From positions 6,119 through 70,118 of the forward strand of contig LSNL01000006.1 of the NCBI GenBank assembly GCA_003056145.1: 64,000 bases of DNA, read 5' to 3'. Positions 9,378 through 59,371 of this stretch are shown here, piece by piece (within the stretch, counting starts at the first letter, position 1; every line of letters begins with the position of its first letter). Source of the DNA: Parcubacteria group bacterium M10-OD1-1. GTDB taxonomy: Bacteria > Patescibacteriota > Minisyncoccia > Moranbacterales > UBA2206. Both the position numbers and the translations under genes were made by a program. The notes beneath the pieces are model-generated. The model saw nothing but the letters and a program-made list of their open reading frames with translations. It ran no database searches and was not told where the DNA came from.

Positions 9378-9791
9378 TTAATAATTGATTATAATTATAC
9401 TCAAAGAGGCAATCATAAGACTTATTTGAACCATAAAAGAAGCTAATAGCAAAATATAACTAGCAATTCTTTCTTTATTTTTATAAAAATAAATAGCTAA
9501 AAATAAATTAGTAATAAATACAAATAATCCGATTGAAGATAAAATAAAAATTTGTTTCCAGCTCCCTGTCTTATCAACTCCGAAATAAACATTATAATGC
9601 AAAATGATGTTTCTGTCAACGGAGTGTAAAAAAATAAATATAATAATCCAATTAATTGCATTAGCTAAAATATTCAATGACAGAAGCCAAATTACTATTT
9701 TATTACTCCAAAAGCTATCTCTGAAAAAAAGCTTGGTTTTATGGTTCAAGCTTTTTATAAAATTTTTCTTTTTTCTTTTTTCTTTTGCCAT
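9378..9791 (-). CDS. hypothetical small integral membrane protein (4 TM)
   Basis: Hydrophobic 137-aa ORF directly downstream of the GT2 gene. No family recognised. Confidence 0.4.
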   Translation of the reverse strand: MAKEKRKKKNFIKSLNHKTKLFFRDSFWSNKIVIWLLSLNILANAINWIIIFIFLHSVDRNIILHYNVYFGVDKTGSWKQIFILSSIGLFVFITNLFLAIYFYKNKERIASYILLLASFMVQISLMIASLSIIIINY

Positions 9792-9802
9792 AGTTTTAGC
9801 CT

Positions 9803-13197: not shown

Positions 13198-15061
13198 TTT
13201 TTTGATTATTATCTTTTTGTTGATTATTGGCTGAATAATATTTTAAAGTATGCGTTCTATTAAATAAAGCTAAATCTTTCTGAGTATATTTTTCAGTTGG
13301 TTGAATACTTTTATAATCTAGTAAAAATTTCATCAATTCTCCAAAAGTTGGAGCTGCACTTGATTCTGCCCATTGAACTGTTTTTGGATCATCCATTCTA
13401 ACTAGAATGACGAATCGAGGATTATTGATAGGAGCAAACCCAGCAAAAGAACCAATGCTTTCCCCTTGAACATAGCCTCTTTTCTTTGAGCTAGCTACTT
13501 GCGCTGTACCAGTTTTTCCTCCTACTAAATAACCTGGAACATCAGCTCTTCTTCCGTGTTCATGAACAACGACACTTCTTAACATTTGAGCAACTTCTTG
13601 AGCTGCTTTTTGCGAAATCACTCTTCTGACTTCTTGAGGTTCAATATATTCATCAGTTCCATCGCTATGAATTATTTTTTCTACTATCTGTGGTTTCATT
13701 AAAATACCTCCGTTAGCAATCGCACTATAAGCGCTGACTAATTGAATTGGTGTCGCAGTTATTCCTTGTCCAAAAGAAGCTGTATAAAATTGAATATTGC
13801 TTCTTAGATTATTTAAATTACTAATATTACCTGCACTTTCCCCTGGCAAAGTTATCTTTGTTAAATTTCCAAAACCAAATCGTTGGACATAATCTCTAAA
13901 ATTTCTATTCCCCAAAAGTTTTTCCACGTAGATAGCTCCAGTATTTAAAGATTTATCTAAAACTTGAGTCATAGTTTGCAATCCATCAGCTTCTAATTCT
14001 GCATTTCTAATTGTATAGCCAGCTTCTGTTACTCTTCCTGTATCGGTATAGGTTGTCTGAGGTGTTATTTTACCATTATCGATAGCAGCTGACATAGTAA
14101 TAGTTTTAAAAATACTTCCACACTCATAAGCATTACTAACAGCTAAGTTTCTAAAATCAGCCATCTCAGATACATTTCTATATTCATTCGGATTAAAATT
14201 TGGATAACTAGCCATTGCTAAAATTCTTCCTGTCTTTGGCTCTTCTACGATAATCGTTCCTCGTTTAGCTTCAAATTTATCAATCGCCCCCTGAAGAATT
14301 CTTTCTGTTTCATATTGGATAGTATGATCAATAGTCAAAACTAAACTATCTCCATTTTTAGCTTGACTTATCTTTCTTTCCCCTGTGGAGATCCAACTGT
14401 CTGAATTATCTTTATTTTGATATAATTCACCTTTCTGACCTTGAAGCTTTGTATTAAAATAAGCTTCAATTCCATAACGCCCTCCTAAACTATGCCCCCT
14501 CCAACCAACAAAACCTAAAACGTTAGAAGCTAATTTATCCGCTGGATAATATCTATATGTTTCATCTGACAAATGAATTCCTTCTAATTTTAAACTATCC
14601 AATTGACTTATGGAGCCTTCAGATAATCGATGTTTTAAAACTTCATAACTATCCTGAGATCTAGAAAGTTTCCTTCTCAAATGATCTTTATTTAAGTCTA
14701 GAATTTTTGCCAATAAATGAGCTTCCAATTCTGGATTTTTAATTTCTCTTGGTACAGCATAAGCCATTTTAGTCTCCTTATTCACAGCAACTAGATAAAC
14801 TCCGCCTTGATCTTGAAGGAAAATTTCCCCTCTCTTAGGAATTAGTTTTTTTAAAATAGAATGCTGATTGTCAGCTAATTCTTGATAATAGCTATGTGCT
14901 AAGACTTGGATAGAATAAAGTTTTAAAACTATTATTCCTGTCACTAAAATTATAACAGCGAATAAAATATAAATTCTAGCATTATCAAATTCATATTGAC
15001 CAATTAATTGAAAAAAATGTTTTATCTTACTTTTCCTTTTCTGAGAGTTTACTGAATTCAT
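13181..15061 (-). CDS. ftsI: peptidoglycan D,D-transpeptidase FtsI (class B PBP)
   Basis: N-terminal TM, PBP dimerisation domain, transpeptidase motifs SIFK (SxxK), SxN and KTGTA. Confidence 0.85.
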   Translation of the reverse strand: MNSVNSQKRKSKIKHFFQLIGQYEFDNARIYILFAVIILVTGIIVLKLYSIQVLAHSYYQELADNQHSILKKLIPKRGEIFLQDQGGVYLVAVNKETKMAYAVPREIKNPELEAHLLAKILDLNKDHLRRKLSRSQDSYEVLKHRLSEGSISQLDSLKLEGIHLSDETYRYYPADKLASNVLGFVGWRGHSLGGRYGIEAYFNTKLQGQKGELYQNKDNSDSWISTGERKISQAKNGDSLVLTIDHTIQYETERILQGAIDKFEAKRGTIIVEEPKTGRILAMASYPNFNPNEYRNVSEMADFRNLAVSNAYECGSIFKTITMSAAIDNGKITPQTTYTDTGRVTEAGYTIRNAELEADGLQTMTQVLDKSLNTGAIYVEKLLGNRNFRDYVQRFGFGNLTKITLPGESAGNISNLNNLRSNIQFYTASFGQGITATPIQLVSAYSAIANGGILMKPQIVEKIIHSDGTDEYIEPQEVRRVISQKAAQEVAQMLRSVVVHEHGRRADVPGYLVGGKTGTAQVASSKKRGYVQGESIGSFAGFAPINNPRFVILVRMDDPKTVQWAESSAAPTFGELMKFLLDYKSIQPTEKYTQKDLALFNRTHTLKYYSANNQQKDNNQKNGNSK

Positions 15062-46697: not shown

Positions 46698-47714
46698 TTA
46701 ATTAGAACAACTTTCTCCACCACCTTTATTAGCTGCTTGGCTACCATAGCCAAATCCAGGATTAGGAACAGTAGTAGATAGCTTCTTATTACATTCCGCT
46801 GGAGCTTTTGTAAAAGCTGAGCAAATAGTTTTTAACAAACCTTCAGAACTTCTATTAGTTGGCTTTACTCCTATTTGAGTTCCGTTAATTACTAAAGTTG
46901 GTGAACCCTTAACTTTATATTTTTCATTATCTGATTTATCTATGTTAAAAGTAGGAAATTGACCATTAGACCAAGTATCTTTATTGTTATAGTTAGTTGT
47001 TACTTTAAATTGACTGTCTGCCTTTTTCATACAGTTAGTAATTTTAGAACCATCAATTTTAGCTTCTTTTAAACAATTAGCCTCTGTCCCTTCCCCTTTC
47101 TTCAAGAAACAACCTAAATAGGTTTCTAGCTGAATTGGAAAATCTTTTTTAACACAATATTGTCGCAAATTTTCATCTAATTCCTTCTTTCCATGCATTG
47201 AATAATCAACAAATTTTAAATTAAAATCTATCTTACTTCCTAAATCTTTTAATACTGGCAACAAACCTTTTTCTATTTGAGTTCCATAAGGACAATAACT
47301 CATTACAAACAAATCTACGGTTGGTTTATCACTTTTTGGTGCTTGTTTAGCTGGAGCAGATTTAGCAGCTTGTTTTTTCATTTTTTCCACTTCGGCGATA
47401 TTAATACTTCCTCTAGGAAAGAACTCTTTTCCATCTTTACTCAAATAAGTATTTGCTAACTGATTATTAACTTTGATAGTAATCTTATAAAGACCGTTCT
47501 CATCAGAAATATTTTTTACTTCTGCTTTTTCTCCTGGCTGTAACATATTATTATTAACAAAATCAATCACTTTAGTTTTCGCTTCATTTTTAGTTAATAT
47601 TTTATTTTGAGCAGTTAGCTTAAACTCATTTCTATAAAAAAGATACCCAGCAACAGCTAGAATAATTATTCCAATGGCGATTATAATCGCTACTTTTTTA
47701 TTTTTTTGTTCCAT
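46698..47714 (-). CDS. membrane-anchored DsbA/thioredoxin-fold protein with an atypical CPYG (single-Cys) active-site motif and a Cys-rich C-terminus
   Basis: TM anchor; thioredoxin-like ...FVMSYCPYGTQ... and cis-Pro-region-like SPTLVINGTQIGV. Confidence 0.45.
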   Translation of the reverse strand: MEQKNKKVAIIIAIGIIILAVAGYLFYRNEFKLTAQNKILTKNEAKTKVIDFVNNNMLQPGEKAEVKNISDENGLYKITIKVNNQLANTYLSKDGKEFFPRGSINIAEVEKMKKQAAKSAPAKQAPKSDKPTVDLFVMSYCPYGTQIEKGLLPVLKDLGSKIDFNLKFVDYSMHGKKELDENLRQYCVKKDFPIQLETYLGCFLKKGEGTEANCLKEAKIDGSKITNCMKKADSQFKVTTNYNNKDTWSNGQFPTFNIDKSDNEKYKVKGSPTLVINGTQIGVKPTNRSSEGLLKTICSAFTKAPAECNKKLSTTVPNPGFGYGSQAANKGGGESCSN

Positions 47715-48283
47715 TAATTTTTTTATTATTTTAATTATTAGTTTTGTTATTTTTCAATAAATTCAATAACTTTTTAATTATACAACTTTTTATTTTAAAA
47801 AACAAATTCTAGTCTTGTCTAATACAAAATAAGCCCGAAGGCTTATTTGGCAGAGATAATAACCACAATTTTAGGCACCAGATACAGTTTTTTGAAACTA
47901 GTCCTTACAAAAAATGACAATAGCTCTAAGAAGAAAATAATGGAAATTAAAAAAGAAAATATTTGAAAAAATTAAGTGATTTTATAATAAACTAGTCTAA
48001 ATTGTAAGTTGTGTTTCAGGAGTCATTTGAGAATTAAAATATACTGCATAATTTATGGTCCGTGTCAGGTTTTCTATTCTACACAAACAAGCTCCACTAT
48101 TACAGGCATGCCTCCCAGTTATATCTAGTTTGCTTTATTATTTATATATATTCACTATCTATTTAACAAGAGGTGTATCTTCTTCCAAAACTTTGATACA
48201 CCTCCTGAATAGCTATTCTCTTTTTTTACTAATCATTCAGTATTATCCTCAGAAAACCATTTCGTGAAAATAATCAACTAACC

Positions 48284-50695
48284 CTAGAACCAACTAAATG
48301 GATTATACCAATGAGACTCACTCTGAGTCTTTTGAGGAGCTGAGGTTTTTTCTGATTGAGTAGGAGCAGTAGTTTCTGATTGAGTAGGAGTTGGATTACT
48401 TTCAGTTGTCTGATTACCTTCTGTTTGAGTTTGAGTCTTAGCTGAATTAGCTTGATTGGATTGAGATTGAGTATTACTTTCTGCTGAAGAGGTAGTCTTA
48501 GCTGATGTCTTAGCTGATGTCTTAGCTGATGTCTTAGCTGATGTCTTAGCTGATGATTGAATTGCTAAACCAACCTTGAGATTGCCAGTTTTGATAGTGT
48601 AGTTACCCGCTCTATCATAAGCTTTAACTTTTATAGGATATACTCCAGCTGTAAGATTGCCGGGAAGAGTAAATTCAGGAGTATGATTATTGAAAATCCT
48701 TCCTTGAAAATAAATTTTATATTTTTTTATCTTGTCGTTATCAGTAGCTAAAAACTTGATAGTTTGTCCTTTGTGATAGCTAATCGTAGTTGAAGGGAAT
48801 TGGGAGAAAATTGGTTTGAGAGTATCTGTTCTGACAATAATAGGTTTTGACAATCCTGAAGAATTACCTGCTTGATCATAAACTCTTATGTAATAAGTGT
48901 CTTTGCTAGATCTATTTTTTGGAAGTTTTATCTTCCAACTTCCATCTCTATCTATATCTACTGTTCCTATGCGATGTTTATTACCTTTTTTGTTTTTTCT
49001 ATATAACACAACGGTTCCCTTCTCTGCTTCTGAGTTTGTTCCTCTGAGAGTGGGTTTTCTCTTCTTTGAGAAAATAATGGAATGTTTCTTCTTGTTTAAG
49101 CTAGTACCGTTGTGACTTGATAATTTAATGCTACTTCTTTTACTACTAGGAGCTGTCTTGTCATAAAGAATATTTAAAGTTGTGCTATCACTCTCATAAT
49201 CAATATAGTCTCGGAATTTAACATAGAGCTTTTTATTCCCTTCAGAGTTAAAAGTATATACTTTAGTTTTTTGATATGGTTCCCAAGTGGCTCCAGAGAA
49301 ATCAGAGTTTTCACTAATCATCATATCTTTAGCGTCTGTAGCAGTAAAGTTAAGAGTCACTTGGTTATCTGTTGTAACAGAAGGATAGTTGATGGAAATG
49401 TTTTTTGGACCGAGATGAAAGATAAGAACACGGTTATTAGTATTAGTATCAGAAACAAAAAGCTTGTTATTAATCGCGAAAAGCATTGAAACATTACTTG
49501 TTTTTTTAGCTGATAATCCAACTGAGTTAGTTGTTAAATCAGGTTGTCCTAAGACATAATCAGCGGAAATATCATTGGTAGTAGGAATGTGAGAAAAAAT
49601 AGTTACTCTAGAATTACTCCATTCACCGATAAATATTTTTCCTTGTTGTTCAATAACGCTTTGAGGATATTCCTCGGTTTTTGCCGTTGGACCAGTTAAT
49701 CCTTGATTCGGTGAACCACTTACCATATCTGGTTGACCGATAACCGTATCAGCGGAAGCATCATTAGTAGTAGGAATATGATTATAGATAAGAGTTCTTG
49801 AATTTCCATTATCAGCAATGTATAATTTTCCATCATTATTAATATAAAGACCGCTAGGATCACTTAAAGTTTTAGCACTAACAGTTCCTCCTTGATTAGC
49901 AGAGTTGCTAATCATATCCGGCTGTCCAATCACTACATCAGCGGAAGCATCATTGGTGGTAGGAATGTGATTATAGATAAGAACACGATTATTGCCCCGG
50001 TCAAGAATAAACATTTTACCTTGATATACAAAAACATCGTGAGGATAATCTATCGTATTAGCGTTGGCTGTTGCTTCTCCTTGATTAGTAGAGTTGCTAA
50101 TCATATCCGGCTGTCCAATCACTACATCAGCGGAAGCATCATTGGTAGTAGGAATGTGATTATAGATAAGCACTCTATTATTACCTCCACGGGATGGTCC
50201 ACCTTCCCCATCGCAAATAAATAGTTTTCCTTGATAAACAAAAATCCCAGTTGGACCAAAAAGAGTATTCGCTCCCACACTTCCACCTTGATCGGCATCT
50301 CCACTCGTAAAATCTTTCTGTCCAATAACTACATCAGCGGAAGCATCATTAGTAGTAGGAATGTGATTATAGATAAGCACTCTATTGCTTCTTTCTTCTG
50401 CTATAATTAATTTCGTTCCATCGCTCCAAATTCCTTTAGGAAAATCTATTGTATTCGCTCCAACACTCCCTCCTTGGTTTGCATCGCCACTTGTGAAATT
50501 TGGCTGACCAATTACTACATCCGCATTCTTATCAATTCCAATAGCTTGAGCCGAATTAGTATTAACAAAAGCTAGACCAACGATTAATAATGCTACTCCA
50601 GCAATACTTTTAATTCTTTGGTTTAGTTTTAATTTTGAATTTTGTTCTTCTAAATTGCTAGAATTCAATTTCATTTTTTGCAATACTTTTTTCAT
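48284..50695 (-). CDS. secreted NHL-repeat beta-propeller surface protein (803 aa) with Ig-like region, AKTS repeats, Thr/Ser/Gln-rich tail and C-terminal HWYNPFSWF
   Basis: Signal peptide ...AGVALLIVGLAFVNTNSAQA. Six or more repeats of NRVLIYNHIPTTNDASADVVIGQPD. Confidence 0.7.
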   Translation of the reverse strand: MKKVLQKMKLNSSNLEEQNSKLKLNQRIKSIAGVALLIVGLAFVNTNSAQAIGIDKNADVVIGQPNFTSGDANQGGSVGANTIDFPKGIWSDGTKLIIAEERSNRVLIYNHIPTTNDASADVVIGQKDFTSGDADQGGSVGANTLFGPTGIFVYQGKLFICDGEGGPSRGGNNRVLIYNHIPTTNDASADVVIGQPDMISNSTNQGEATANANTIDYPHDVFVYQGKMFILDRGNNRVLIYNHIPTTNDASADVVIGQPDMISNSANQGGTVSAKTLSDPSGLYINNDGKLYIADNGNSRTLIYNHIPTTNDASADTVIGQPDMVSGSPNQGLTGPTAKTEEYPQSVIEQQGKIFIGEWSNSRVTIFSHIPTTNDISADYVLGQPDLTTNSVGLSAKKTSNVSMLFAINNKLFVSDTNTNNRVLIFHLGPKNISINYPSVTTDNQVTLNFTATDAKDMMISENSDFSGATWEPYQKTKVYTFNSEGNKKLYVKFRDYIDYESDSTTLNILYDKTAPSSKRSSIKLSSHNGTSLNKKKHSIIFSKKRKPTLRGTNSEAEKGTVVLYRKNKKGNKHRIGTVDIDRDGSWKIKLPKNRSSKDTYYIRVYDQAGNSSGLSKPIIVRTDTLKPIFSQFPSTTISYHKGQTIKFLATDNDKIKKYKIYFQGRIFNNHTPEFTLPGNLTAGVYPIKVKAYDRAGNYTIKTGNLKVGLAIQSSAKTSAKTSAKTSAKTSAKTTSSAESNTQSQSNQANSAKTQTQTEGNQTTESNPTPTQSETTAPTQSEKTSAPQKTQSESHWYNPFSWF

Positions 50696-51116
50696 ACTTT
50701 TAGTTTTAGTTTTAAAAATTAATTATCAAAATACCGAAGAAGGACAAATATCTTTAAAAATCTATCCCGACTACGAAGTTAATTACATACCCTTTGAAGA
50801 ATTTTTCTTCAATTATTGATATAATTAATTTGACAAAAAGTCATTTAATTCGCAGTTGATATTTTATTATCTTTATTCTATATATTTTTTAAATTTGAGT
50901 CAAATAAAAAATACTTTTAAATAATTACTTCTATTTTACTCTGCCCCTTTAAGGTTGTCAAATTATTTTTCAGTCTTGTTTCAATATTTTATTTCTGTAT
51001 TCCTTTTTCCATTCCTGCAAAGGCAAAAATCTAGTCACTAAGTCTTGTTTTAGCGTAAAAACTTCTAAATTAGTTTGTTTCTTCAATTATTTTAATCGCA
51101 AAATTTAAAAAATAAT

Positions 51117-51151
51117 AAAAAACCTTGCAAAATAGAATTTCGCAAGGTTTT
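51117..51151 (-). terminator. duplicated copy of the ftsZ terminator hairpin (inside repeat copy 1)
   Basis: AACCTTGCAAAATAGAATTTCGCAAGGTTTT, identical to 58083-58117. Confidence 0.6.
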
Positions 51152-51178
51152 AAAAGTAGCTAAAACATTTAACTAAAT

Positions 51179-51247
51179 TTATTTTCCCATTTTTCTCCGA
51201 ATAAAAGCTGGAATCTCTAACTCATCATCTTCATCATTAAGTTCTTT
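51179..51247 (-). pseudogene. 3'-terminal 23-codon fragment of ftsZ (...DDELEIPAFIRRKMGK*) carried at the end of repeat copy 1
   Basis: Identical to the genuine ftsZ 3' end at 58145-58213. Similarity breaks at 51248. Confidence 0.75.
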
Positions 51248-51440
51248 CCTATGCAAATAAAGTTTCCAAAGTATATATAACCCTTTTTCAATTTTTTAAA
51301 TATATTCTTTTCCTTTAAAATACCGACTGCCCTACAGTATCTTTCTGCTCGGGAAAAACAACTGCCATTTCTTTTTTTAATAATATAACTACCCATGCCC
51401 CCGCTTTGATTCGCATCTCCATTTGTGCACTTTATTAAAA
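51248..51440 (-). pseudogene. degenerate fragment of a second NHL-repeat paralogue (…TNGDANQSGGMGSY…)
   Basis: Diverged but recognisable nucleotide and protein similarity to the GDANQGGSVGAN region of the NHL genes. No intact ORF. Confidence 0.4.
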
Positions 51441-51586
51441 AAATGTACCTTGATTATCAGAACAAATCAATACTATTATACTTTGGCTCGGAAACTTAGC
51501 GCTTTGAGCCAACGCCCTAGAAAACGCCGGAATCAAGAAGCCAGTCAACCAACTATTCCCCCGACAAATCTTTTTTTGAAAACGTT

Positions 51587-53152
51587 TTATTTCAATATTT
51601 TGACAGTTCCTTTTCCCGCATCAACCTCCAACATATCCCCTGTTTGTACAACTCTTGTAGCTACTTTTGTTCCAACGATACAAGGCAATTTAAATTCGCG
51701 ACTAATAATCGCAGCGTGACACGACATTCCGCCTTCATCTGTAATAACCGCCGCCGCTTTTCTAAAAGCCGGAATAAACTCAATTGTTGTCATATAAGTA
51801 ACCAAAATCTCACCTTCTTGTAATTGAGAGACCTTTGAGGCGTCCTCAAGCACTCTCGCCCTAGCTTTTATTTTCCCTGGAGAAGCTGATAACCCTTTAA
51901 ACTCTGTTGTATTAATAATCTTTTCAAACGGACCTGATATATCTTCGTCATTGATTGTTTTCTTAATTTGATCTTTCCCTGTTACTAAATCAAATTTACC
52001 CTGTTTGATTTTGATTATAAAACCGTTTTGTTTGCGTTCTTCTATCTCTTCTTTTGCAATTGTTTTTCCAGACTTAATTGACTGTTCCAGTTCTGTATAT
52101 GAATAAGACAACAAATCGTCTCGAGTTACCTTAAGACGCGACGCTATCTCATCAAGAAGTTTGTTATAGCTTAGTAACGATCGAGTGAAATACCCTTTGG
52201 TCCAATCTCTCATTGCTATAAACTCTGCCAAAGAGTCTATAGCATGCAATACATCCTTTGGAGGATTTAATTCATTAATAATTTTTTGTCTCTGAGTATT
52301 AAGACTATTAAAATTTGCAATAAGCTCTTCCAATTTCTCTTTTGGAGAGGCGTCTTCTGTTACTATCGCTTTTTTAAATGACTCAATCCATTTTTCTCTT
52401 GACCAACCACCACTAACATATTCTGTATTTATCCACTCATATTTCTGGGTATGCTTTTCAAACAACGAATCTTCCTCTGGGTATTTTTTTAGTCCCGCAC
52501 TGATTTCTTCAATAGTTTCATTTTGAAACATTTTCTTTATTTCTTCATCTTCGTATAACCTTGTGGCTATTTGAAAAAAGTTCTTTTGTTCCGTAAAAGC
52601 CACCGTTTCTCCCGTATTAACTAAAAGTGCACTTTTATACATATCAAAATCTCTTCCCTTATTAAGCTCTTGTAGACGGTTTTGTAAGAAAGTAATTATC
52701 TTATAATCTTCATCTATACAAGCCTCTATACCCCATAACTGAACTGTAATAATTGGAGCCACCATCATCGTATTGATAAAATCCTTATACATATACAAGA
52801 CTTCATCATTTGACAAAAGTTTTAAATTTTCTAAATCAATATTAATACATTTAAAGAAAATAGCCCCAAATATCTCATCTGTTCTCCGATGAAAATCTTT
52901 AACAAAATTCGGGTTCTTGTCTATACTGTCTTGAATATCTTTAAATTTTGCACCTGACTTTAACTGACTTTTATCATAAAATACATAACAACCTTTTCCC
53001 GGAACACCAACAACAATTTGGTTATCAAACCAAAAATCTACAGCCGGTGCCCAGCCTTTACTAGACATGCCACGCATAAGAATACTGAAATGATGTAAAC
53101 TTGCATTTCTTCTGTGCGCCCAAAACCAATTTATTTTACCTTGTTCATTCAT
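51587..53152 (-). CDS. PEP-utilising-enzyme phosphohistidine (swivel) domain protein with a ~420-aa N-terminal region (rifampin-phosphotransferase/PEP-synthase-like C-terminal part)
   Basis: C-terminal ...ILVTYMTTIEFIPAFRKAAAVITDEGGMSCHAAIISREFKLPCIVG (GG-x-x-S/T-H-A-A-I-x-x-R-E mobile-domain signature). Confidence 0.7.
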   Translation of the reverse strand: MNEQGKINWFWAHRRNASLHHFSILMRGMSSKGWAPAVDFWFDNQIVVGVPGKGCYVFYDKSQLKSGAKFKDIQDSIDKNPNFVKDFHRRTDEIFGAIFFKCINIDLENLKLLSNDEVLYMYKDFINTMMVAPIITVQLWGIEACIDEDYKIITFLQNRLQELNKGRDFDMYKSALLVNTGETVAFTEQKNFFQIATRLYEDEEIKKMFQNETIEEISAGLKKYPEEDSLFEKHTQKYEWINTEYVSGGWSREKWIESFKKAIVTEDASPKEKLEELIANFNSLNTQRQKIINELNPPKDVLHAIDSLAEFIAMRDWTKGYFTRSLLSYNKLLDEIASRLKVTRDDLLSYSYTELEQSIKSGKTIAKEEIEERKQNGFIIKIKQGKFDLVTGKDQIKKTINDEDISGPFEKIINTTEFKGLSASPGKIKARARVLEDASKVSQLQEGEILVTYMTTIEFIPAFRKAAAVITDEGGMSCHAAIISREFKLPCIVGTKVATRVVQTGDMLEVDAGKGTVKILK

Positions 53153-53158
53153 AATTAA

Positions 53159-54082
53159 TTATTTAAAATTTAATTTACCACTAAACGATTTATTTCCACT
53201 GAAATTCCCTTGAACCTTTATACCATATTTTCCATCCTCTTTTACGTATTCCAATTTAAGTGACTGGGACTCTTTTATAACGCCACCAGTTCTCTCAAAA
53301 AAATCTTCCGCCCTTAATTCCTTTGCTGGTGTCCCGTCCTCAAAAACTAGATACTTTTTTAGTAAACTCATAATTGGAAACGAGTGCGAAATATCAATCT
53401 GTTTATATGACTCATCTTTAGGCTGAAGATTTCCGAGGTCTCTGTTTGAAGCAAGTAGCCCGGTATGTTTCAAAAAACCACTGTATCTTTTAGCCAGTTT
53501 ATCAGCCAGATCTTCATAAGAAGTATGGAATCCTTTCTGCTCAGCCTTCTCCGAATCAAACAGTATCGTCAATACTTTTATATCAATAAAATTTCTAACT
53601 TCCGCTTCTTTTTCTTCCACAGAAAAATCAGGGTGCTCTTGATTAACCTTGTCTCGTATCAACGGCTCTAAAGATTTCTGTAGCTTAACAATGATCTCTA
53701 AATCTTTAGTATCTTGCTCTTTTTCTGCTTCGCCTAAGGGCTGAAAAGGTACCTCAAGTTTCTCCTGTTTACTACTTATATTCTTGTGCCTATGCTCCGT
53801 TGCGGAAACTCTTTCCAAATCTATCGCCGCCGTATCTACAGCTCTTTCAATAGGACTGCTAGAAATATGGACAAGTCCTTTGCCTTCTTGAATACCCATT
53901 TCTTCAAACCCTTTCTCCACAGAAGCACTAAAATGCTGTGCTTTTTCGTTTTTCTCTCCAGAGGCACTGAGTTTTGGACCGTGGCGTTGCAAATAGGTTT
54001 CAAAGATAACTTTTTCGGCATCCTCTTTTTTTTCTGCCACATTCTCTTTCGGTTTATTTAAATTTTCAAAATTCTCTTTCAT
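53159..54082 (-). CDS. hypothetical protein (307 aa) between the ATP-grasp and phosphohistidine-domain ORFs
   Basis: Intact ORF in the same frame as both neighbours. No family recognised. Confidence 0.4.
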   Translation of the reverse strand: MKENFENLNKPKENVAEKKEDAEKVIFETYLQRHGPKLSASGEKNEKAQHFSASVEKGFEEMGIQEGKGLVHISSSPIERAVDTAAIDLERVSATEHRHKNISSKQEKLEVPFQPLGEAEKEQDTKDLEIIVKLQKSLEPLIRDKVNQEHPDFSVEEKEAEVRNFIDIKVLTILFDSEKAEQKGFHTSYEDLADKLAKRYSGFLKHTGLLASNRDLGNLQPKDESYKQIDISHSFPIMSLLKKYLVFEDGTPAKELRAEDFFERTGGVIKESQSLKLEYVKEDGKYGIKVQGNFSGNKSFSGKLNFK

Positions 54083-54085
54083 ATT

Positions 54086-55033
54086 TCAAACATTAAGTGT
54101 TGTTATTGGACGAGATTGCGTAATATAGAAAGTTTCCTGTTCCAGCACCCATTCAATATCGCAAGGAAAACCGTAATGATTTTCTATCAGAATAATAATA
54201 TTTACCAATTCAAGAATCTTATTTTCAGTCAATACTTGTGCTTCAGCTTTTTCTTCCGGAAGTTTTTTCCACTCACAACCACCTCGCTCAGCTCTATACA
54301 ACCCTTTGTTTTGCGTACTCACATTTATATCAGTAATCTGTATCGGTTTTTTCTCAACCACATAATTATCCGGTGTAATCTGACCTGACACAATCGCATC
54401 ACCCAATCCAAACCCTGCCTCAATTACAATTTGATTTTCGTCTTGTATAACCGGATGCACCGAAAACGCAACTCCTGCAGAGTCAGCTTCAATCATTTTT
54501 TGGACAACAACAGCGACAGATATTTTTTGATTATTAAGTTTTTTTTCAAAACGATAAAAAATTGCCCGGACCGTAAAAAGGGACGCCCAACATTTACGTA
54601 CGTTTTCTAAAAATTTATCTTCCGTCGTATTTAGATAACTATCGAGCTGTCCTGCCCACGCAGCAGCCGAACTGTCCTCGGAAGTGGCGGATGAACGTAT
54701 GGCAACATATTTTGCTCCTAATTTTTTAAAATCTTTTTGTATCTCATCTATAACATCTTCTGGAATTTTAGCGTCTAAGATAAGAGACTGGATTTTTTGT
54801 GAGGCTTCTTCAACGGTAGCTATAATATTATGATCTACTTTATTTAGTAAGACTTCTATTTTCGGATTAAGCTCTGCGTCTTCAATAAACTTATCAAATG
54901 CATCAGAAAGCACTACAAAACCAGGAGGCACGGGGATACCAGCTTGTGTCATTTCCCCTAAAGAGGCTCCCTTGCCACCGGCAATTGCCACATCGTCTTT
55001 ACTAAGATTTACAAAATCACGAGTAAATTTCAT
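54086..55033 (-). CDS. PPDK_N-type ATP-grasp (PEP/pyruvate-binding, nucleotide-binding) domain protein; N-terminal part of a PEP-synthase/rifampin-phosphotransferase-like enzyme
   Basis: VAIAGGKGASLGEMTQAGIPVPPGFVV...AIRSSATSEDS...VVVQKMIEADSAGVAFS, typical of the pyruvate phosphate dikinase N-terminal domain. Confidence 0.7.
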   Translation of the reverse strand: MKFTRDFVNLSKDDVAIAGGKGASLGEMTQAGIPVPPGFVVLSDAFDKFIEDAELNPKIEVLLNKVDHNIIATVEEASQKIQSLILDAKIPEDVIDEIQKDFKKLGAKYVAIRSSATSEDSSAAAWAGQLDSYLNTTEDKFLENVRKCWASLFTVRAIFYRFEKKLNNQKISVAVVVQKMIEADSAGVAFSVHPVIQDENQIVIEAGFGLGDAIVSGQITPDNYVVEKKPIQITDINVSTQNKGLYRAERGGCEWKKLPEEKAEAQVLTENKILELVNIIILIENHYGFPCDIEWVLEQETFYITQSRPITTLNV

Positions 55034-55273
55034 ATGTTATATAAAGTATTATACTACACGTTAGTAACTGTTATCCAAGGCTATGCATACTCTCAGTATT
55101 ACTATAAATAATATCTAGTTTGCTTTATTATTTTTATATATTCACTATCTATTTAACAAGAGGTGTACCTTCTTCCAAAACTTTGATACACCTCTTAAAT
55201 AGCTATTCTCTTTTTTTACTAATCATTCAGTATTATCCTCAGAAAACCATTTCGTGAAAATAATCAACTAACC

Positions 55274-57661
55274 CTAGAACCAACTAAATGGATTGTACCA
55301 ATGAGACTCACTCTGAGTCTTTTGAGGAGCTGAGGTTTTTTCTGATTGAGTAGGAGTTGGATTACTTTCAGTTGTCTGATTACCTTCTGTTTGAGTTTGA
55401 GTCTTAGCTGAATTAGCTTGATTGGATTGAGATTGAGTATTACTTTCTGCTGAAGAGGTAGTCTTAGCTGATGTCTTAGCTGATGTCTTAGCTGATGTCT
55501 TAGCTGATGTCTTAGCTGATGATTGAATTGCTAAACCAACCTTGAGATTGCCAGTTTTGATAGTGTAGTTACCCGCTCTATCATAAGCTTTAACTTTTAT
55601 AGGATATACTCCAGCTGTAAGATTGCCGGGAAGAGTAAATTCAGGAGTATGATTATTGAAAATCCTTCCTTGAAAATAAATTTTATATTTTTTTATCTTG
55701 TCGTTATCAGTAGCTAAAAACTTGATAGTTTGTCCTTTGTGATAGCTAATCGTAGTTGAAGGGAATTGGGAGAAAATTGGTTTGAGAGTATCTGTTCTGA
55801 CAATAATAGGTTTTGACAATCCTGAAGAATTACCTGCTTGATCATAAACTCTTATGTAATAAGTGTCTTTGCTAGATCTATTTTTTGGAAGTTTTATCTT
55901 CCAACTTCCATCTCTATCTATATCTACTGTTCCTATGCGATGTTTATTACCTTTTTTGTTTTTTCTATATAACACAACGGTTCCCTTCTCTGCTTCTGAG
56001 TTTGTTCCTCTGAGAGTGGGTTTTCTCTTCTTTGAGAAAATAATGGAATGTTTCTTCTTGTTTAAGCTAGTACCGTTGTGACTTGATAATTTAATGCTAC
56101 TTCTTTTACTACTAGGAGCTGTCTTGTCATAAAGAATATTTAAAGTTGTGCTATCACTCTCATAATCAATATAGTCTCGGAATTTAACATAGAGCTTTTT
56201 ATTCCCTTCAGAGTTAAAAGTATATACTTTAGTTTTTTGATATGGTTCCCAAGTGGCTCCAGAGAAATCAGAGTTTTCACTAATCATCATATCTTTAGCG
56301 TCTGTAGCAGTAAAGTTAAGAGTCACTTGGTTATCTGTTGTAACAGAAGGATAGTTGATGGAAATGTTTTTTGGACCGAGATGAAAGATAAGAACACGGT
56401 TATTAGTATTAGTATCAGAAACAAAAAGCTTGTTATTAATCGCGAAAAGCATTGAAACATTACTTGTTTTTTTAGCTGATAATCCAACTGAGTTAGTTGT
56501 TAAATCAGGTTGTCCTAAGACATAATCAGCGGAAATATCATTGGTAGTAGGAATGTGAGAAAAAATAGTTACTCTAGAATTACTCCATTCACCGATAAAT
56601 ATTTTTCCTTGTTGTTCAATAACGCTTTGAGGATATTCCTCGGTTTTTGCCGTTGGACCAGTTAATCCTTGATTCGGTGAACCACTTACCATATCTGGTT
56701 GACCGATAACCGTATCAGCGGAAGCATCATTAGTAGTAGGAATATGATTATAGATAAGAGTTCTTGAATTTCCATTATCAGCAATGTATAATTTTCCATC
56801 ATTATTAATATAAAGACCGCTAGGATCACTTAAAGTTTTAGCACTAACAGTTCCTCCTTGATTAGCAGAGTTGCTAATCATATCCGGCTGTCCAATCACT
56901 ACATCAGCGGAAGCATCATTGGTGGTAGGAATGTGATTATAGATAAGAACACGATTATTGCCCCGGTCAAGAATAAACATTTTACCTTGATATACAAAAA
57001 CATCGTGAGGATAATCTATCGTATTAGCGTTGGCTGTTGCTTCTCCTTGATTAGTAGAGTTGCTAATCATATCCGGCTGTCCAATCACTACATCAGCGGA
57101 AGCATCATTGGTAGTAGGAATGTGATTATAGATAAGCACTCTATTATTACCTCCACGGGATGGTCCACCTTCCCCATCGCAAATAAATAGTTTTCCTTGA
57201 TAAACAAAAATCCCAGTTGGACCAAAAAGAGTATTCGCTCCCACACTTCCACCTTGATCGGCATCTCCACTCGTAAAATCTTTCTGTCCAATAACTACAT
57301 CAGCGGAAGCATCATTAGTAGTAGGAATGTGATTATAGATAAGCACTCTATTGCTTCTTTCTTCTGCTATAATTAATTTCGTTCCATCGCTCCAAATTCC
57401 TTTAGGAAAATCTATTGTATTCGCTCCAACACTCCCTCCTTGGTTTGCATCGCCACTTGTGAAATTTGGCTGACCAATTACTACATCCGCATTCTTATCA
57501 ATTCCAATAGCTTGAGCCGAATTAGTATTAACAAAAGCTAGACCAACGATTAATAATGCTACTCCAGCAATACTTTTAATTCTTTGGTTTAGTTTTAATT
57601 TTGAATTTTGTTCTTCTAAATTGCTAGAATTCAATTTCATTTTTTGCAATACTTTTTTCAT
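55274..57661 (-). CDS. secreted NHL-repeat beta-propeller surface protein, paralogue (795 aa; 8-aa deletion TTAPTQSE in the C-terminal tail relative to copy 1)
   Basis: Protein identical to 48284-50695 apart from the tail indel. Confidence 0.7.
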   Translation of the reverse strand: MKKVLQKMKLNSSNLEEQNSKLKLNQRIKSIAGVALLIVGLAFVNTNSAQAIGIDKNADVVIGQPNFTSGDANQGGSVGANTIDFPKGIWSDGTKLIIAEERSNRVLIYNHIPTTNDASADVVIGQKDFTSGDADQGGSVGANTLFGPTGIFVYQGKLFICDGEGGPSRGGNNRVLIYNHIPTTNDASADVVIGQPDMISNSTNQGEATANANTIDYPHDVFVYQGKMFILDRGNNRVLIYNHIPTTNDASADVVIGQPDMISNSANQGGTVSAKTLSDPSGLYINNDGKLYIADNGNSRTLIYNHIPTTNDASADTVIGQPDMVSGSPNQGLTGPTAKTEEYPQSVIEQQGKIFIGEWSNSRVTIFSHIPTTNDISADYVLGQPDLTTNSVGLSAKKTSNVSMLFAINNKLFVSDTNTNNRVLIFHLGPKNISINYPSVTTDNQVTLNFTATDAKDMMISENSDFSGATWEPYQKTKVYTFNSEGNKKLYVKFRDYIDYESDSTTLNILYDKTAPSSKRSSIKLSSHNGTSLNKKKHSIIFSKKRKPTLRGTNSEAEKGTVVLYRKNKKGNKHRIGTVDIDRDGSWKIKLPKNRSSKDTYYIRVYDQAGNSSGLSKPIIVRTDTLKPIFSQFPSTTISYHKGQTIKFLATDNDKIKKYKIYFQGRIFNNHTPEFTLPGNLTAGVYPIKVKAYDRAGNYTIKTGNLKVGLAIQSSAKTSAKTSAKTSAKTSAKTTSSAESNTQSQSNQANSAKTQTQTEGNQTTESNPTPTQSEKTSAPQKTQSESHWYNPFSWF

Positions 57662-58082
57662 ACTTTTAGTTTTAGTTTTAAAAATTAATTATCAAAATAC
57701 CGAAGAAGGACAAATATCTTTAAAAATCTATCCCGACTACGAAGTTAATTACATACCCTTTGAAGAATTTTTCTTCAATTATTGATATAATTAATTTGAC
57801 AAAAAGTCATTTAATTCGCAGTTGATATTTTATTATCTTTATTCTATATATTTTTTAAATTTGAGTCAAATAAAAAATACTTTTAAATAATTACTTCTAT
57901 TTTACTCTGCCCCTTTAAGGTTGTCAAATTATTTTTCAGTCTTGTTTCAATATTTTATTTCTGTATTCCTTTTTCCATTCCTGCAAAGGCAAAAATCTAG
58001 TCACTAAGTCTTGTTTTAGCGTAAAAACTTCTAAATTAGTTTGTTTCTTCAATTATTTTAATCGCAAAATTTAAAAAATAAT

Positions 58083-58117
58083 AAAAAACCTTGCAAAATA
58101 GAATTTCGCAAGGTTTT
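58083..58117 (-). terminator. rho-independent terminator of ftsZ
   Basis: Minus-strand CCTTGCGAAATTCTATTTTGCAAGG followed by TTTTTTATT. Confidence 0.65.
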
Positions 58118-58144
58118 AAAAGTAGCTAAAACATTTAACTAAAT

Positions 58145-59371
58145 TTATTTTCCCATTTTTCTCCGAATAAAAGCTGGAATCTCTAACTCATCATCTTCAT
58201 CATTAAGTTCTTTTTCTTTTTGACTTTGAAAAGAACTTTTAGTTGCTTTAGGTGGAACTTTATCTTCAATGATCATACTAGACTCAAATTTTTCTGGAAA
58301 AGTTATTTTTGGTTCAGATTCTATTTCTTGATTTTGATTTTGATCTAATTCCTTTTTTTGAAAATTCTCAGTAGAAATTCTAGATATTTTTTCTAAAGGT
58401 GATTCACTGGCATGATCGCTATCAAATCCAGTTGCCACGACTGTAACTTGAATTTCTCCCTTTTTCACCGCTTCATCAACTACTGCTCCAAAAATAACCT
58501 TAGCATTAGGATCTATAGACTCTGTAATAATATTAGCTGCTTCATTTATTTCTAACATCGTTAAGTCAGTTGAACCACTAACATTAAATAAAACTCCTTT
58601 TGCTCCATCAATAGAAAGTTCTAATAATGGACTATTAATAGCAGCCTTAGCTGCATCAGCAGAACGATTTTCACCTGAGCCAATTCCAATCCCCATTAAA
58701 GCACTTCCGCTATCAGACATAATAGCTTTAACATCGGCAAAATCCACATTAACAATTCCTGGTTTAGTTATTAAATCAGAAATTCCTTGCACGCCTTGTC
58801 TTAAAACATCATCTACTATTTTGAAAGAGTTGATTAAGGTAGTTTTCTTATCAATAACTTGCAATAATCTATCATTAGGAATAGTGATTAAAGTATCCAC
58901 TCTTTCTTTTAGATTTTCTAAAGCTTCTTCGGCAATAGCTCTTCTTTGCGCTCCCTCAAAACCAAAAGGTTTAGTTACAACAGCCACAGTCAAAGCTCCT
59001 GACTCCTTAGCTGTTTCAGCAACAATCGGAGCAGCTCCAGAACCAGTTCCTCCACCAAGCCCACAAGTTACAAAAACCATATCAGCTCCTTTTAAAACTT
59101 CTTGAATTTCGTCACGATTTTCTTCAGCAGCTTGACGCCCAACATCTGGGTTCATTCCAGCACCTAAACCTTTAGTTAAATTTTTTCCAATATGAATTTT
59201 CTCCGCTGCTCTATTATGATGTAAATCTTGAGCATCTGTATTGATAGCCACAAATTCTACGCCCTTCAATTTTGCCTCAATCATCCGACTAATTACATTC
59301 CCTCCGGATCCGCCAACGCCAACTACTTTAATTCTAGCAAAAGTTTCTACTGGTGGTTTTATTTCAGCCAT
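58145..59371 (-). CDS. ftsZ: cell-division GTPase FtsZ
   Basis: GGGTGSG tubulin signature, T7 loop, C-terminal ...DDELEIPAFIRRK peptide. Confidence 0.95.
   Translation of the reverse strand: MAEIKPPVETFARIKVVGVGGSGGNVISRMIEAKLKGVEFVAINTDAQDLHHNRAAEKIHIGKNLTKGLGAGMNPDVGRQAAEENRDEIQEVLKGADMVFVTCGLGGGTGSGAAPIVAETAKESGALTVAVVTKPFGFEGAQRRAIAEEALENLKERVDTLITIPNDRLLQVIDKKTTLINSFKIVDDVLRQGVQGISDLITKPGIVNVDFADVKAIMSDSGSALMGIGIGSGENRSADAAKAAINSPLLELSIDGAKGVLFNVSGSTDLTMLEINEAANIITESIDPNAKVIFGAVVDEAVKKGEIQVTVVATGFDSDHASESPLEKISRISTENFQKKELDQNQNQEIESEPKITFPEKFESSMIIEDKVPPKATKSSFQSQKEKELNDEDDELEIPAFIRRKMGK

What the first reader, a model, noticed from the sequence alone, without database searches (positions are those of the whole stretch)
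51587..55033. Split PPDK/rifampin-phosphotransferase-like enzyme: three co-framed ORFs separated by single in-frame TGA and TAA stops, inside the repeat-bounded insert
ORF A is a PPDK_N ATP-grasp (315 aa). ORF C is a ~420-aa middle region plus the GGMSCHAAIISRE phosphohistidine swivel domain; together they match the RPH/PEP-synthase-like layout. An unrelated 307-aa ORF B lies between them. All three are in the same frame (ends congruent mod 3), separated by TGA-AAT-ATG and TAA-TTA-ATT-ATG. Each downstream ORF begins with an ATG one or two codons after the stop. This argues for tightly coupled separate subunits over random nonsense decay. Readthrough or a disrupted single gene cannot be excluded. 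The substrate (PEP/pyruvate, antibiotic, other) is unknown.
Basis: partly seen in the sequence, partly recalled or inferred. Interest (0 to 1): 0.55.

Follow-up and report, generated by a model that had tools for sequence, protein, structure and literature searches.

The report
Two-subunit dikinase operon with phosphatase
The three back-to-back reading frames are not a broken gene: they are an intact operon for a two-subunit ATP-driven small-molecule kinase of a recently recognised type, plus a previously undescribed histidine-phosphatase partner, in a tiny-genome (CPR) bacterium.

Summary
Three minus-strand ORFs lie in one frame: A 54086-55033, B 53159-54082 and C 51587-53152. They are separated by TGA-AAT-ATG and TAA-TTA-ATT-ATG. 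Three other assemblies carry the same junctions.

This is neither a pseudogene nor a readthrough gene.
- A belongs to a very large family of stand-alone ~315-aa PPDK_N ATP-grasp proteins of Patescibacteria. It ends where they all end.
- C belongs to a large family of stand-alone ~500-525-aa proteins. They have an RPH-like helical substrate domain and a C-terminal phosphohistidine swivel domain. His479 is invariant, and R315/D316 align with RPH R666/E667.
- A plus C reproduce the two-component RPH-like dikinases HpeHI, CreHI and PpsAB.

A's position varies, and the B/C reading frames differ or overlap between loci, so the co-framing is chance.

The substrate is unknown. In two clades B-C directly follows flavokinase-ribE-ribH, a lead towards flavin metabolism.

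I class it as a new variant of a known kind, of moderate interest.

The parts
54086..55033 (-). Gene A: stand-alone ATP-grasp (nucleotide-binding) subunit of a two-component dikinase, 315 aa
   Evidence: PF01326 PPDK_N, E 1.2e-95. PDB sequence matches: PEP synthase 1.2e-67, RPH-Lm ATP-grasp 1.1e-58, HpeI (9GOJ) 4.8e-55. The top 120 homologues are nearly all ~315-aa PPDK_N-only proteins of Patescibacteria. A ends 2 residues after the invariant QSRPITTL, as the aligned stand-alone relatives do (0-5 residues after it).
53159..54082 (-). Gene B: divergent histidine-phosphatase-superfamily protein with a large helical cap insertion, 307 aa
53978..53986 (-). B catalytic RHG motif (R33-H34-G35)
   Evidence: Invariant in 25 homologues. 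It sits directly after strand 1 of the model, as in canonical histidine phosphatases. Codons cgc-cac-ggt read.
53384..53386 (-). B second conserved histidine (H233, in D-I-S-H-S-F)
   Evidence: Invariant. It follows strand E226-232.
51587..53152 (-). Gene C: substrate-binding plus phosphohistidine swivel subunit, 521 aa
   Evidence: PF00391 at residues 445-515. AF2 model pLDDT 91.3. The six best Foldseek PDB hits are all rifampin phosphotransferase, E 1.9e-14 to 2.8e-12, TM up to 0.60. Family profile against RPH: E 1.9e-35 over C 173-518. The ~100 nearest homologues are almost all stand-alone full-length proteins of 456-530 aa, with a few shorter, probably partial entries.
51695..51733 (-). 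Swivel-domain motif GGMSCHAAIISRE with catalytic His479 (codon 51716-51718)
   Evidence: H479 is invariant in 31 homologues. It aligns with RPH His825.
52205..52210 (-). R315-D316 of C, counterpart of the RPH phosphotransfer pair R666-E667
   Evidence: The HMMER alignment to 5FBS places R666/E667/K670 opposite C R315/D316/K319. D316 and K319 are invariant and R315 is at least 90% conserved. The roles of R666/E667 are given in PMC4844700.
54083..54088 (-). A/B junction: TGA stop of A plus a 3-nt spacer before the ATG of B
   Evidence: Identical in L001-L003.
53153..53161 (-). B/C junction: TAA stop of B plus a 6-nt spacer before the ATG of C
   Evidence: Identical in L001-L003.
55048..55077 (-). 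Promoter-like site TGGATA-18-TATAAT, 14 nt upstream of A's ATG (consensus match only)
   Evidence: 10 of 12 positions match. The number of such sites in the region is no higher than in shuffled sequence. No terminator-like site lies at either junction; the only two in the A-C span are internal to C (53056-53042 and 51713-51697).
51248..55110 (.). Unique 3.86-kb segment carrying A-B-C, flanked by 3.1-kb direct repeats (48121-51247 and 55111-58213)
   Evidence: The short-read contigs L001-L003 break within or about 100 nt inside the repeats.

Best explanation
A-B-C is an intact three-gene operon encoding three separate proteins.

A and C form a two-component ATP-dependent small-molecule dikinase of the RPH/HpeHI type. 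A is the ATP-grasp subunit. C is a helical substrate-binding domain followed by a C-terminal phosphohistidine swivel domain.

Inferred mechanism, by homology with RPH, PpsAB and HpeHI:
1. A presents ATP.
2. His479 of C attacks the beta-phosphate, and the gamma-phosphate is released as Pi.
3. The phospho-His swivel domain returns to C's own helical domain. There the R315/D316/K319 site transfers the phosphoryl group to a hydroxyl of an unknown small molecule. The products are AMP, Pi and the phosphorylated substrate.

B is a catalytically intact but very divergent histidine phosphatase with a capped active site. It is the fixed partner of C. The most likely role is hydrolysis of a phosphomonoester of the same pathway, either the phosphorylated product after further steps (as HpeD does in the Hpe pathway) or a phosphorylated precursor.

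The short stop-to-start spacers (3 and 6 nt) give translational coupling. The shared reading frame is coincidence.

Shown here: domain identities, folds, catalytic residues, the stand-alone nature of all three families, B-C synteny, and the reality of the stops. Inferred: enzymatic activity, A-C partnership in trans, the direction of B's role, and the substrate.

A flavin or ribityl-pyrimidine substrate is a lead, not a result (about 0.25).
For: - Stand-alone families. A and C end and start where their stand-alone relatives do.
- Fold and sequence match of C to RPH across the RIF-binding-like domain and the swivel domain. H479, D316 and K319 are invariant and R315 is at least 90% conserved.
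- A matches the RPH ATP-grasp (residues 1-314 of RPH) and HpeI.
- Experimental precedent for the two-component architecture and mechanism: HpeHI, CreHI and PpsAB (PMC12167813).
- Precedent for a phosphatase encoded in the same cluster: HpeD (PMC9618137).
- B's fold and catalytic residues.
- B lies directly upstream of a C orthologue in all 13 distinct loci whose sequence extends downstream of B. The gap runs from a 20-nt overlap to a few tens of nt where the start is called. The B and C trees are broadly congruent.
- A lies in the same cluster in 6 distinct loci: A-B-C in the window and L030, B-C-A in L012/L016, B-C-(A fused to a C paralogue) in L006/L014, and A 4-6 kb downstream in L011/L027 and L018.
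- The same stops occur in three other assemblies.
- TGA is a normal stop in the window.
Against: - No biochemical data exist for any member of these three CPR families.
- C's similarity to RPH is remote (16-17% identity, TM at most 0.60). Its first ~170 residues have no sequence-level match.
- In several loci no A gene lies within 6-10 kb of B-C (L004/L010, L032, L013/L020). The A-C partnership is therefore inferred rather than fixed by synteny.
- A kinase and a phosphatase with no intervening enzymes in the operon could look like a futile cycle.
- The proton donor of B was not identified.
- Model coordinates could not be inspected to confirm the active-site geometry.
Confidence: 0.8

Rival explanations
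1. B does not act on a metabolite. It acts on C itself, either as a SixA-like phosphohistidine phosphatase that resets or regulates the phospho-His479 swivel domain, or as a phospho-acceptor in a His-to-His relay in which C primes B's catalytic His34, as a mutase-type enzyme needs.
For: - B-C adjacency is strict, with overlapping or near-abutting genes.
- Proteins with histidine-phosphatase hits or motifs lie next to A or C-type genes in every additional CPR locus sampled: L031, L033, L034, L035, L036. Only the L031, L033 and L034 proteins pass Pfam.
- Both proteins work through a phosphohistidine.
Against: - B carries a ~95-residue helical insertion (residues 122-216), which resembles the caps of small-molecule histidine phosphatases. 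SixA-type protein phosphatases are minimal and uncapped. This rests on my own knowledge of the superfamily, not on a test.
- No complex prediction could be run.
- C retains the RPH-like acceptor site R315/D316/K319, which argues for a small-molecule acceptor.
Confidence: 0.13
2. A+C (and the arrays of C paralogues elsewhere) form a xenobiotic or antibiotic-inactivating phosphotransferase toolkit like RPH, with B unrelated to the chemistry.
For: - RPH is the closest solved structure to C.
- RPH-like enzymes are described as a large family, with some members acting on antibiotics (PMC4844700; PMC12167813).
- C-type genes occur in diversified arrays of up to 11 or more.
Against: - C orthologues are highly conserved (58-81% identity across many metagenomes; mean column identity 55%). 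They are always paired with B. This pattern suggests a fixed endogenous substrate rather than a diversifying resistance gene.
- NCBIfam RPH models score far below their cut-offs: 286.9 and 81.8 bits against 999.
Confidence: 0.05
3. The locus is a single RPH/PEP-synthase-like gene disrupted by nonsense mutations and an insertion (a pseudogene), or a single gene expressed by programmed stop-codon readthrough.
For: All three ORFs are in one frame with single stops and very short spacers. L030 is also co-framed.
Against: - B has an unrelated fold, so no continuous ancestral gene exists.
- A and C are full-length members of stand-alone families.
- In other loci B and C are in different frames or overlap by 20 nt.
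- In L030, A's TGA is followed immediately by an in-frame TAA.
- The gene order is B-C-A in L012/L016.
- TGA is used as a stop elsewhere in the window.
- All catalytic residues are conserved.
Confidence: 0.02

Closest known systems
Two-component RPH-like small-molecule dikinases: HpeHI (Rhodococcus), CreHI (Corynebacterium), phenylphosphate synthase PpsAB (Thauera)
   Same: - A separate ATP-grasp subunit (HpeI/PpsB, matching A) and a separate subunit with an RPH-type substrate domain plus a C-terminal swivel His (HpeH/PpsA, matching C).
- No PEP/pyruvate TIM-barrel domain.
- Catalytic His in a GGxxxH motif.
- A phosphatase encoded in the same pathway cluster (HpeD).
- A matches HpeI (9GOJ) at E 4.8e-55.
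   Different: - The known members act on phenols in aromatic catabolism of free-living Actinobacteria and Proteobacteria. No aromatic-catabolic genes were seen among the annotated neighbours here, and the host is a CPR bacterium.
- C is ~520 aa, against the 71-kDa HpeH.
- The partner phosphatase belongs to the histidine-phosphatase superfamily and is interleaved or adjacent. HpeD's closest characterised homologue is NagD.
- A matches the PEP synthase and RPH ATP-grasp domains more strongly (lower E-values) than it matches HpeI, so it is not a close orthologue.
- C-type genes form large paralogue arrays in related genomes.
Rifampin phosphotransferase (RPH-Lm, PDB 5FBS/5FBT/5HV1)
   Same: - The same three modules in the same order: ATP-grasp 1-314, helical substrate domain, C-terminal swivel His.
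- It is the best structural match of C.
- R666/E667/K670/H825 correspond to R315/D316/K319/H479.
   Different: - RPH is one polypeptide of 867 aa. Here it is split exactly at the ATP-grasp boundary, with another gene in between.
- Identity is 16-17%.
- NCBIfam RPH cut-offs are not reached.
- Nothing suggests rifamycin as the substrate.
PEP synthase / pyruvate phosphate dikinase
   Same: ATP-grasp and swivel domains, with strong sequence matches to both.
   Different: No PEP-utilizers_C TIM-barrel domain was detected. The swivel domain is C-terminal rather than central. The matches cover only those two domains.
Histidine phosphatase superfamily, including Aquifex HFP (ARAPDP phosphatase of riboflavin synthesis, 9MMH) and RosC
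   Same: - RHG, second Arg and second His motifs.
- In two clades B sits directly after flavokinase-ribE-ribH. The Aquifex enzyme shows that this superfamily can supply the riboflavin-pathway phosphatase.
   Different: - No Pfam PF00300 or PF00328 hit.
- The profile finds no canonical member in PDB or in 1.84 billion representatives.
- B has a ~95-residue helical insertion.
- The structural similarity is equal across the whole superfamily, so it says nothing about substrate.
- The window contains no rib genes.

Membership tests
Two-component RPH-like small-molecule dikinase (HpeHI/CreHI/PpsAB type) | ATP-grasp (PPDK_N) domain encoded as a separate polypeptide | tested here: met
   A is 315 aa with PF01326 only. 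Its homologues are stand-alone with the same C-terminus.
Two-component RPH-like small-molecule dikinase (HpeHI/CreHI/PpsAB type) | Second polypeptide with an RPH RIF-binding-like domain followed by a C-terminal swivel domain | tested here: met
   The best Foldseek PDB hits are all RPH and cover both domains. The profile alignment covers C 173-518 against RPH 511-866.
Two-component RPH-like small-molecule dikinase (HpeHI/CreHI/PpsAB type) | Conserved catalytic His in the GGxxS/CH motif of the swivel domain | tested here: met
   GGMSCH479AAIISRE. H479 is invariant in 31 sequences.
Two-component RPH-like small-molecule dikinase (HpeHI/CreHI/PpsAB type) | No PEP/pyruvate-binding TIM-barrel (PEP-utilizers_C) domain | tested here: met
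   No PF02896 hit in A, B or C at E up to 0.01.
Two-component RPH-like small-molecule dikinase (HpeHI/CreHI/PpsAB type) | Both components required for the ATP -> AMP + Pi dikinase reaction on a small molecule | not testable with these tools
   This needs enzymology.
Two-component RPH-like small-molecule dikinase (HpeHI/CreHI/PpsAB type) | Close sequence kinship to the phenol-kinase subfamily (HpeH, CreH and PpsA are ~45% identical to one another) | tested here: inconclusive
   Only HpeI was available (9GOJ). A matches it at E 4.8e-55, weaker than its matches to PEP synthase (1.2e-67) and RPH (1.1e-58).
Rifampin phosphotransferase (NCBIfam NF041857) | Single ~865-aa chain scoring above the curated cut-off (999 bits) | tested here: not met
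   A scores 286.9 bits and C 81.8 bits, and they are separate genes.
PEP synthase (TIGR01418 / NF005057) | Full-length match including the C-terminal PEP-utilizers_C domain, above the cut-off | tested here: not met
   A scores 313-322 bits against cut-offs of 598-740. [quoted passage not shown]
Histidine phosphatase superfamily (B) | Alpha/beta fold of the superfamily | tested here: met
   [not shown]
Histidine phosphatase superfamily (B) | Catalytic RHG motif, second Arg and second His conserved | tested here: met
   R33-H34-G35, R80 and H233 are invariant in 25 sequences and sit at the canonical secondary-structure positions.
Histidine phosphatase superfamily (B) | Recognised by the family HMMs (PF00300 / PF00328) | tested here: not met
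   No Pfam hit at E up to 0.01. hhalign against two canonical members gives only E 0.063 and 4.5e-4, over the N-terminal motifs.
Pseudogene / recoded single gene | Orthologues with one uninterrupted reading frame across both junctions | tested here: not met
   None was found. Gene order and frames vary, the genes overlap in L008 and L016, and L030 has a double stop.
Known anti-phage defence systems (PADLOC) | Match to a defence-system protein model | tested here: not met
   No hits for A, B or C.

The most novel reading that the evidence does not exclude
CPR (and possibly DPANN) genomes may use a modular phosphorylation system. One or a few free-standing ATP-grasp subunits (A) would charge many different swivel and substrate-binding subunits: C-type genes occur in same-strand arrays of up to 11 or more. 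Dedicated, highly divergent histidine phosphatases (B and at least two other ~300-aa groups) would be built-in partners. The conserved B-C pair would then supply or recycle a phosphorylated intermediate of flavin synthesis or salvage (the flavokinase-ribE-ribH-B-C-A operon), or B would be charged or reset directly by C's phosphohistidine.
Probability: 0.25. Interest if true: 0.7.

Novelty: new variant of a known kind. Interest (0 to 1): 0.45.

Why it matters
- It turns an apparent broken gene into a clean, testable three-protein module.
- It extends the two-component dikinase subfamily, defined experimentally in 2025 from aromatic catabolism in free-living bacteria, to the reduced genomes of Patescibacteria. 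There, stand-alone A and C genes are very abundant (thousands of database hits).
- It defines a new orphan branch of the histidine-phosphatase superfamily with a fixed genomic partner.
- It gives a concrete lead for an unannotated step of cofactor metabolism in organisms whose metabolism is mostly unknown: linkage to ribH, ribE and flavokinase, with the Aquifex histidine-family ARAPDP phosphatase as precedent.
- Annotation pipelines currently call these genes 'PEP synthase', 'PEP/pyruvate-binding domain protein' or 'hypothetical'. That can mislead metabolic reconstructions of CPR gluconeogenesis.

Tried and rejected
- **B sequence searches.** Profile searches with B against PDB sequences gave nothing. 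hhalign against canonical His_Phos_1 proteins was weak. Only structure comparison placed B.
- **B family HMM.** It does not detect the other ~300-aa neighbours of C orthologues in L035 and L036. Their histidine-phosphatase nature rests on motifs and sub-threshold Pfam hits only.
- **Defence system.** No PADLOC hits.
- **RNA genes.** No tRNA or Rfam element in 47500-58500.
- **Flavin genes in the window.** No flavokinase, ribE, ribH or FMNAT homologue in the window, so the flavin link cannot be shown for this genome.
- **Alternative genetic code.** TGA as a sense codon is rejected, because TGA ends 5 of the 47 open frames of at least 150 codons.
- **Literature.** Searches for CPR-specific descriptions of these proteins returned nothing.
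- **Promoter and terminator scan.** It gave one good promoter-like site upstream of A, but no enrichment over shuffled sequence.


Full report
**Observation.** Three ORFs lie head to tail on the minus strand: A 54086-55033 (315 aa), B 53159-54082 (307 aa) and C 51587-53152 (521 aa). The junctions read TGA-AAT-ATG and TAA-TTA-ATT-ATG. Start-to-start distances of 951 and 930 nt put all three in one frame.

The same segment was assembled independently in three other samples: L001 from NCBI GCA_006243085.1, and L002 and L003 from Logan. These differ from the window by 2-9 substitutions over 3.2-4.1 kb and have identical junctions. The stops are therefore real. TGA ends 5 of the 47 open frames of at least 150 codons in the window, so the standard code applies.

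The window is chromosomal. Its neighbours are ftsA, ftsZ, ybeY, yqeY, hisS, uvrA, nrdR and nrdD. GC content is 31%, against 36% for A-B-C.

**What A and C are.**
- A is a full-length PPDK_N ATP-grasp (PF01326, E 1.2e-95).
- Its PDB sequence matches are PEP synthases (1.2e-67), the RPH-Lm ATP-grasp (1.1e-58) and HpeI, PDB 9GOJ (4.8e-55).
- C has the PEP-utilizers swivel domain at residues 445-515.
- An AlphaFold model of C (pLDDT 91.3) finds rifampin phosphotransferase as its six best PDB matches. E ranges from 1.9e-14 to 2.8e-12, with TM up to 0.60 over ~600 columns.
- PPDK, pyruvate kinase and PTS enzyme I match only the swivel domain.
- A profile of the C family aligns residues 173-518 with RPH 511-866 (E 1.9e-35).
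- In that alignment RPH H825 corresponds to C H479, and the RPH phosphotransfer residues R666/E667/K670 correspond to R315/D316/K319. The roles of the RPH residues come from PMC4844700.
- H479, D316 and K319 are invariant, and R315 is at least 90% conserved, in 31 homologues.
- RPH's ATP-grasp is residues 1-314. A (315 aa) plus C (521 aa) therefore reproduce RPH split exactly at that domain boundary. No PEP-utilizers_C domain was detected in either protein.

**Split by design, not by decay.**
- The 120 best homologues of A (63-70% identity) are almost all ~315-aa PPDK_N-only proteins. Those that carry a source name come from Patescibacteria (Moranbacteria, Paceibacterota, Parcubacteria).
- A ends two residues after the invariant QSRPITTL, as the aligned stand-alone relatives do (0-5 residues after it). 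A fused relative (808 aa, L006) continues past this point.
- The ~100 best homologues of C (81% down to 34% identity) are almost all stand-alone full-length proteins of 456-530 aa with PF00391 only, apart from a few shorter, probably partial entries. Named examples include Patescibacteria and DPANN archaea. Their N-termini align with C's start.
- This architecture has a characterised precedent. HpeHI, CreHI and PpsAB are two-component dikinases in which HpeI is the RPH ATP-grasp and HpeH is the RIF-binding-like domain plus swivel domain.
- In those enzymes both components are required, the His is essential, the mechanism runs through a pyrophospho-/phospho-His intermediate, and the two subunits form only a transient complex (PMC12167813).

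**What B is.**
- B has no Pfam hit, and its family profile finds nothing in PDB by sequence.
- Its AlphaFold model is confident (pLDDT 90.4).
- R33-H34-G35, N45, R80, E159 and H233 are invariant. The RHG, second-Arg and second-His motifs lie at the canonical positions after strands 1, 2 and the later strand.
- A ~95-residue helical insertion (residues 122-216) resembles the caps of small-molecule phosphatases of this superfamily.
- The family is tiny: 41 proteins in the indexed search and 31 clusters among 1.84 billion representatives. No bridge to canonical members was found.
- The four loci found among species-representative genomes include three from Moranbacteria/Moraniibacteriota MAGs and one from an unnamed uncultured bacterium.

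**Synteny.**
- In all 13 distinct loci whose sequence extends downstream of B, a full-length or contig-truncated orthologue of C (48-75% identity) follows on the same strand. The gap runs from a 20-nt overlap to a few tens of nt where the start is called.
- The B and C trees are broadly congruent.
- A is mobile within the cluster. The order is A-B-C in the window and L030, and B-C-A in L012/L016. In L006/L014, B-C is followed by A fused to a C paralogue. In L011/L027 and L018, A lies 4-6 kb downstream. In L004/L010, L032 and L013/L020 no A lies within 6-10 kb.
- Counting the window, the B/C frame offsets across 14 distinct loci are 0, 1 and 2 in 5, 6 and 3 loci. In L030, A's TGA is followed at once by an in-frame TAA.
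- Co-framing in the window is therefore chance. Readthrough and pseudogene models are excluded.

**Wider context seen on the way.**
- Related genomes carry same-strand arrays of C-type paralogues (25-50% identity to C). There are 9 in 21 kb with one A in L011/L027, and 11 called PEP-utilizers genes in 15.6 kb in L036, several overlapping by 4 nt.
- Every additional CPR locus sampled through A or C also holds a neighbouring protein with histidine-phosphatase features. The list is:
  - HIT-A-C'(357 aa)-His_Phos_1 in L033.
  - A 314-aa His_Phos_1-like protein just upstream of A in L034.
  - His_Phos_1 next to C'-B-C in L031.
  - ~300-aa proteins with RH[GDS]...R.R..TA...[ST]HG motifs flanking the C orthologue in L035 and L036.
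- The L031, L033 and L034 proteins pass Pfam. The L035 and L036 proteins are supported only by motifs and sub-threshold scores.

**Substrate lead.**
- In two separate clades of the B/C trees, B-C lies directly downstream of flavokinase-ribE-ribH. These are L004/L010 with L032, and L012/L016 with L008/L011. In L008/L011 three C paralogues are intercalated.
- In L004 and L032 an FMN-adenylyltransferase-like gene converges on C.
- In L016 the block reads flavokinase-ribE-ribH-B-C-A, with overlaps or 1-nt gaps.

**Mechanism proposed.**
1. A binds ATP.
2. C's His479 takes the beta-phosphate, releasing Pi and AMP.
3. The swivel domain docks back on C's helical domain.
4. The R315/D316/K319 site transfers the phosphoryl group to a hydroxyl of an unknown small molecule.
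5. B, through phospho-His34, hydrolyses a phosphomonoester of the same pathway. The precedent is HpeD, which dephosphorylates after the intervening carboxylation in the Hpe pathway (PMC9618137).

The 3- and 6-nt spacers, the lack of terminator-like sites at either junction, and a promoter-like TGGATA-18-TATAAT site 14 nt upstream of A's ATG fit one tightly coupled transcript. The scan is not enriched over shuffled sequence.

The main rival is that B acts on C's phosphohistidine, as a SixA-like reset or a His-to-His relay. It could not be tested here because no complex prediction was available.

**Setting of the locus.**
- A-B-C sits in a 3.86-kb unique segment (51248-55110). It lies between two 3.1-kb direct repeats that are 99.07% identical and each encode an ~800-aa NHL/Ig-like surface protein.
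- Each repeat begins in the last ~23 codons of ftsZ. The downstream copy carries a relic ...LEIPAFIRRKMGK* tail at about 51179-51247.
- The short-read contigs of the other samples break within or about 100 nt inside the repeats.
- The pattern fits a duplication or recombination event that placed the operon here. The alternative, a chromosome plus a circular R+U molecule, cannot be excluded without long reads.

**Verdict.** The locus is a new variant of a known kind. It is a CPR version of the two-component RPH-like dikinases with an obligately linked, previously undescribed histidine-phosphatase family. Interest is moderate (0.45). It would be higher if the modular one-ATP-grasp/many-acceptor system or the flavin link proves true.

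Noticed in passing
window 48121-51247 and 55111-58213: Two 3.1-kb direct repeats are 99.07% identical (5 mismatches, one gap). Each encodes an ~800-aa NHL-repeat/Ig-like protein with an S/T-rich tail (803 vs 795 aa). Each repeat begins inside the last ~23 codons of ftsZ, so the downstream copy carries a relic FtsZ C-terminal peptide (...LEIPAFIRRKMGK*) at about 51179-51247. Short-read contigs from other samples break at these repeats.
   Followed up: partly
L036 1-15566; L035 1-8506; L011/L027 400-18900: There are same-strand arrays of C-type (PF00391-only) paralogues: 11 called genes in 15.6 kb in L036, several overlapping by 4 nt. Few or no A genes lie nearby. This suggests one ATP-grasp subunit may serve many swivel/substrate subunits.
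   Followed up: partly
L033:3900-4655; L034:7051-7995; L031:94-732; L035:6031-6933 and 9611-10540; L036:8578-9510 and 13644-14642: Proteins with histidine-phosphatase hits or motifs, outside the B family, sit next to stand-alone A or C-type genes in every extra CPR locus sampled. Only the L031, L033 and L034 proteins pass Pfam. The others rest on RH[GDS], R.R..TA and [ST]HG motifs and sub-threshold scores.
   Followed up: partly
L034:7051-7995: This 314-aa His_Phos_1-like protein lies upstream of A. The stretch before its conserved P-G-I-T-E-A-G reads N-R-V-E-Y, with no canonical RHG motif. It may be a pseudo-phosphatase, or the alignment or start call may be wrong.
   Followed up: no
L004 4436-8890; L032 3056-7461; L016 8376-13455; L008 162-8485: Flavokinase-ribE-ribH lies directly upstream of B-C, in two separate clades of the B/C tree. 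A convergent FMN-adenylyltransferase-like gene follows C in L004 and L032. No ribA, ribD or ribB was seen among the called or scanned genes of these loci.
   Followed up: partly
L006/L014 (808-aa gene at L006:8613-11039): A fused single-chain form (A-type ATP-grasp plus C-paralogue) lies immediately downstream of a split B-C pair in the same genome. Fused and split forms therefore coexist.
   Followed up: no
P0026 and P0035 (B homologues, 468 and 472 aa; L019): Two B-family members carry a conserved ~165-residue C-terminal extension of unknown nature.
   Followed up: no
window 55034-55060, 54083-54100, 53153-53175: None of the three start codons has a recognisable Shine-Dalgarno sequence within ~15 nt. 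A's ATG lies 14 nt downstream of a TATAAT box, which suggests a very short or absent leader.
   Followed up: no
L016:6958-8379: This 473-aa gene has a weak GCS2 (carboxylate-amine ligase) match. It overlaps the flavokinase start by 4 nt, at the head of the flavokinase-ribE-ribH-B-C-A block, and is preceded by a class-I glutamine amidotransferase.
   Followed up: no
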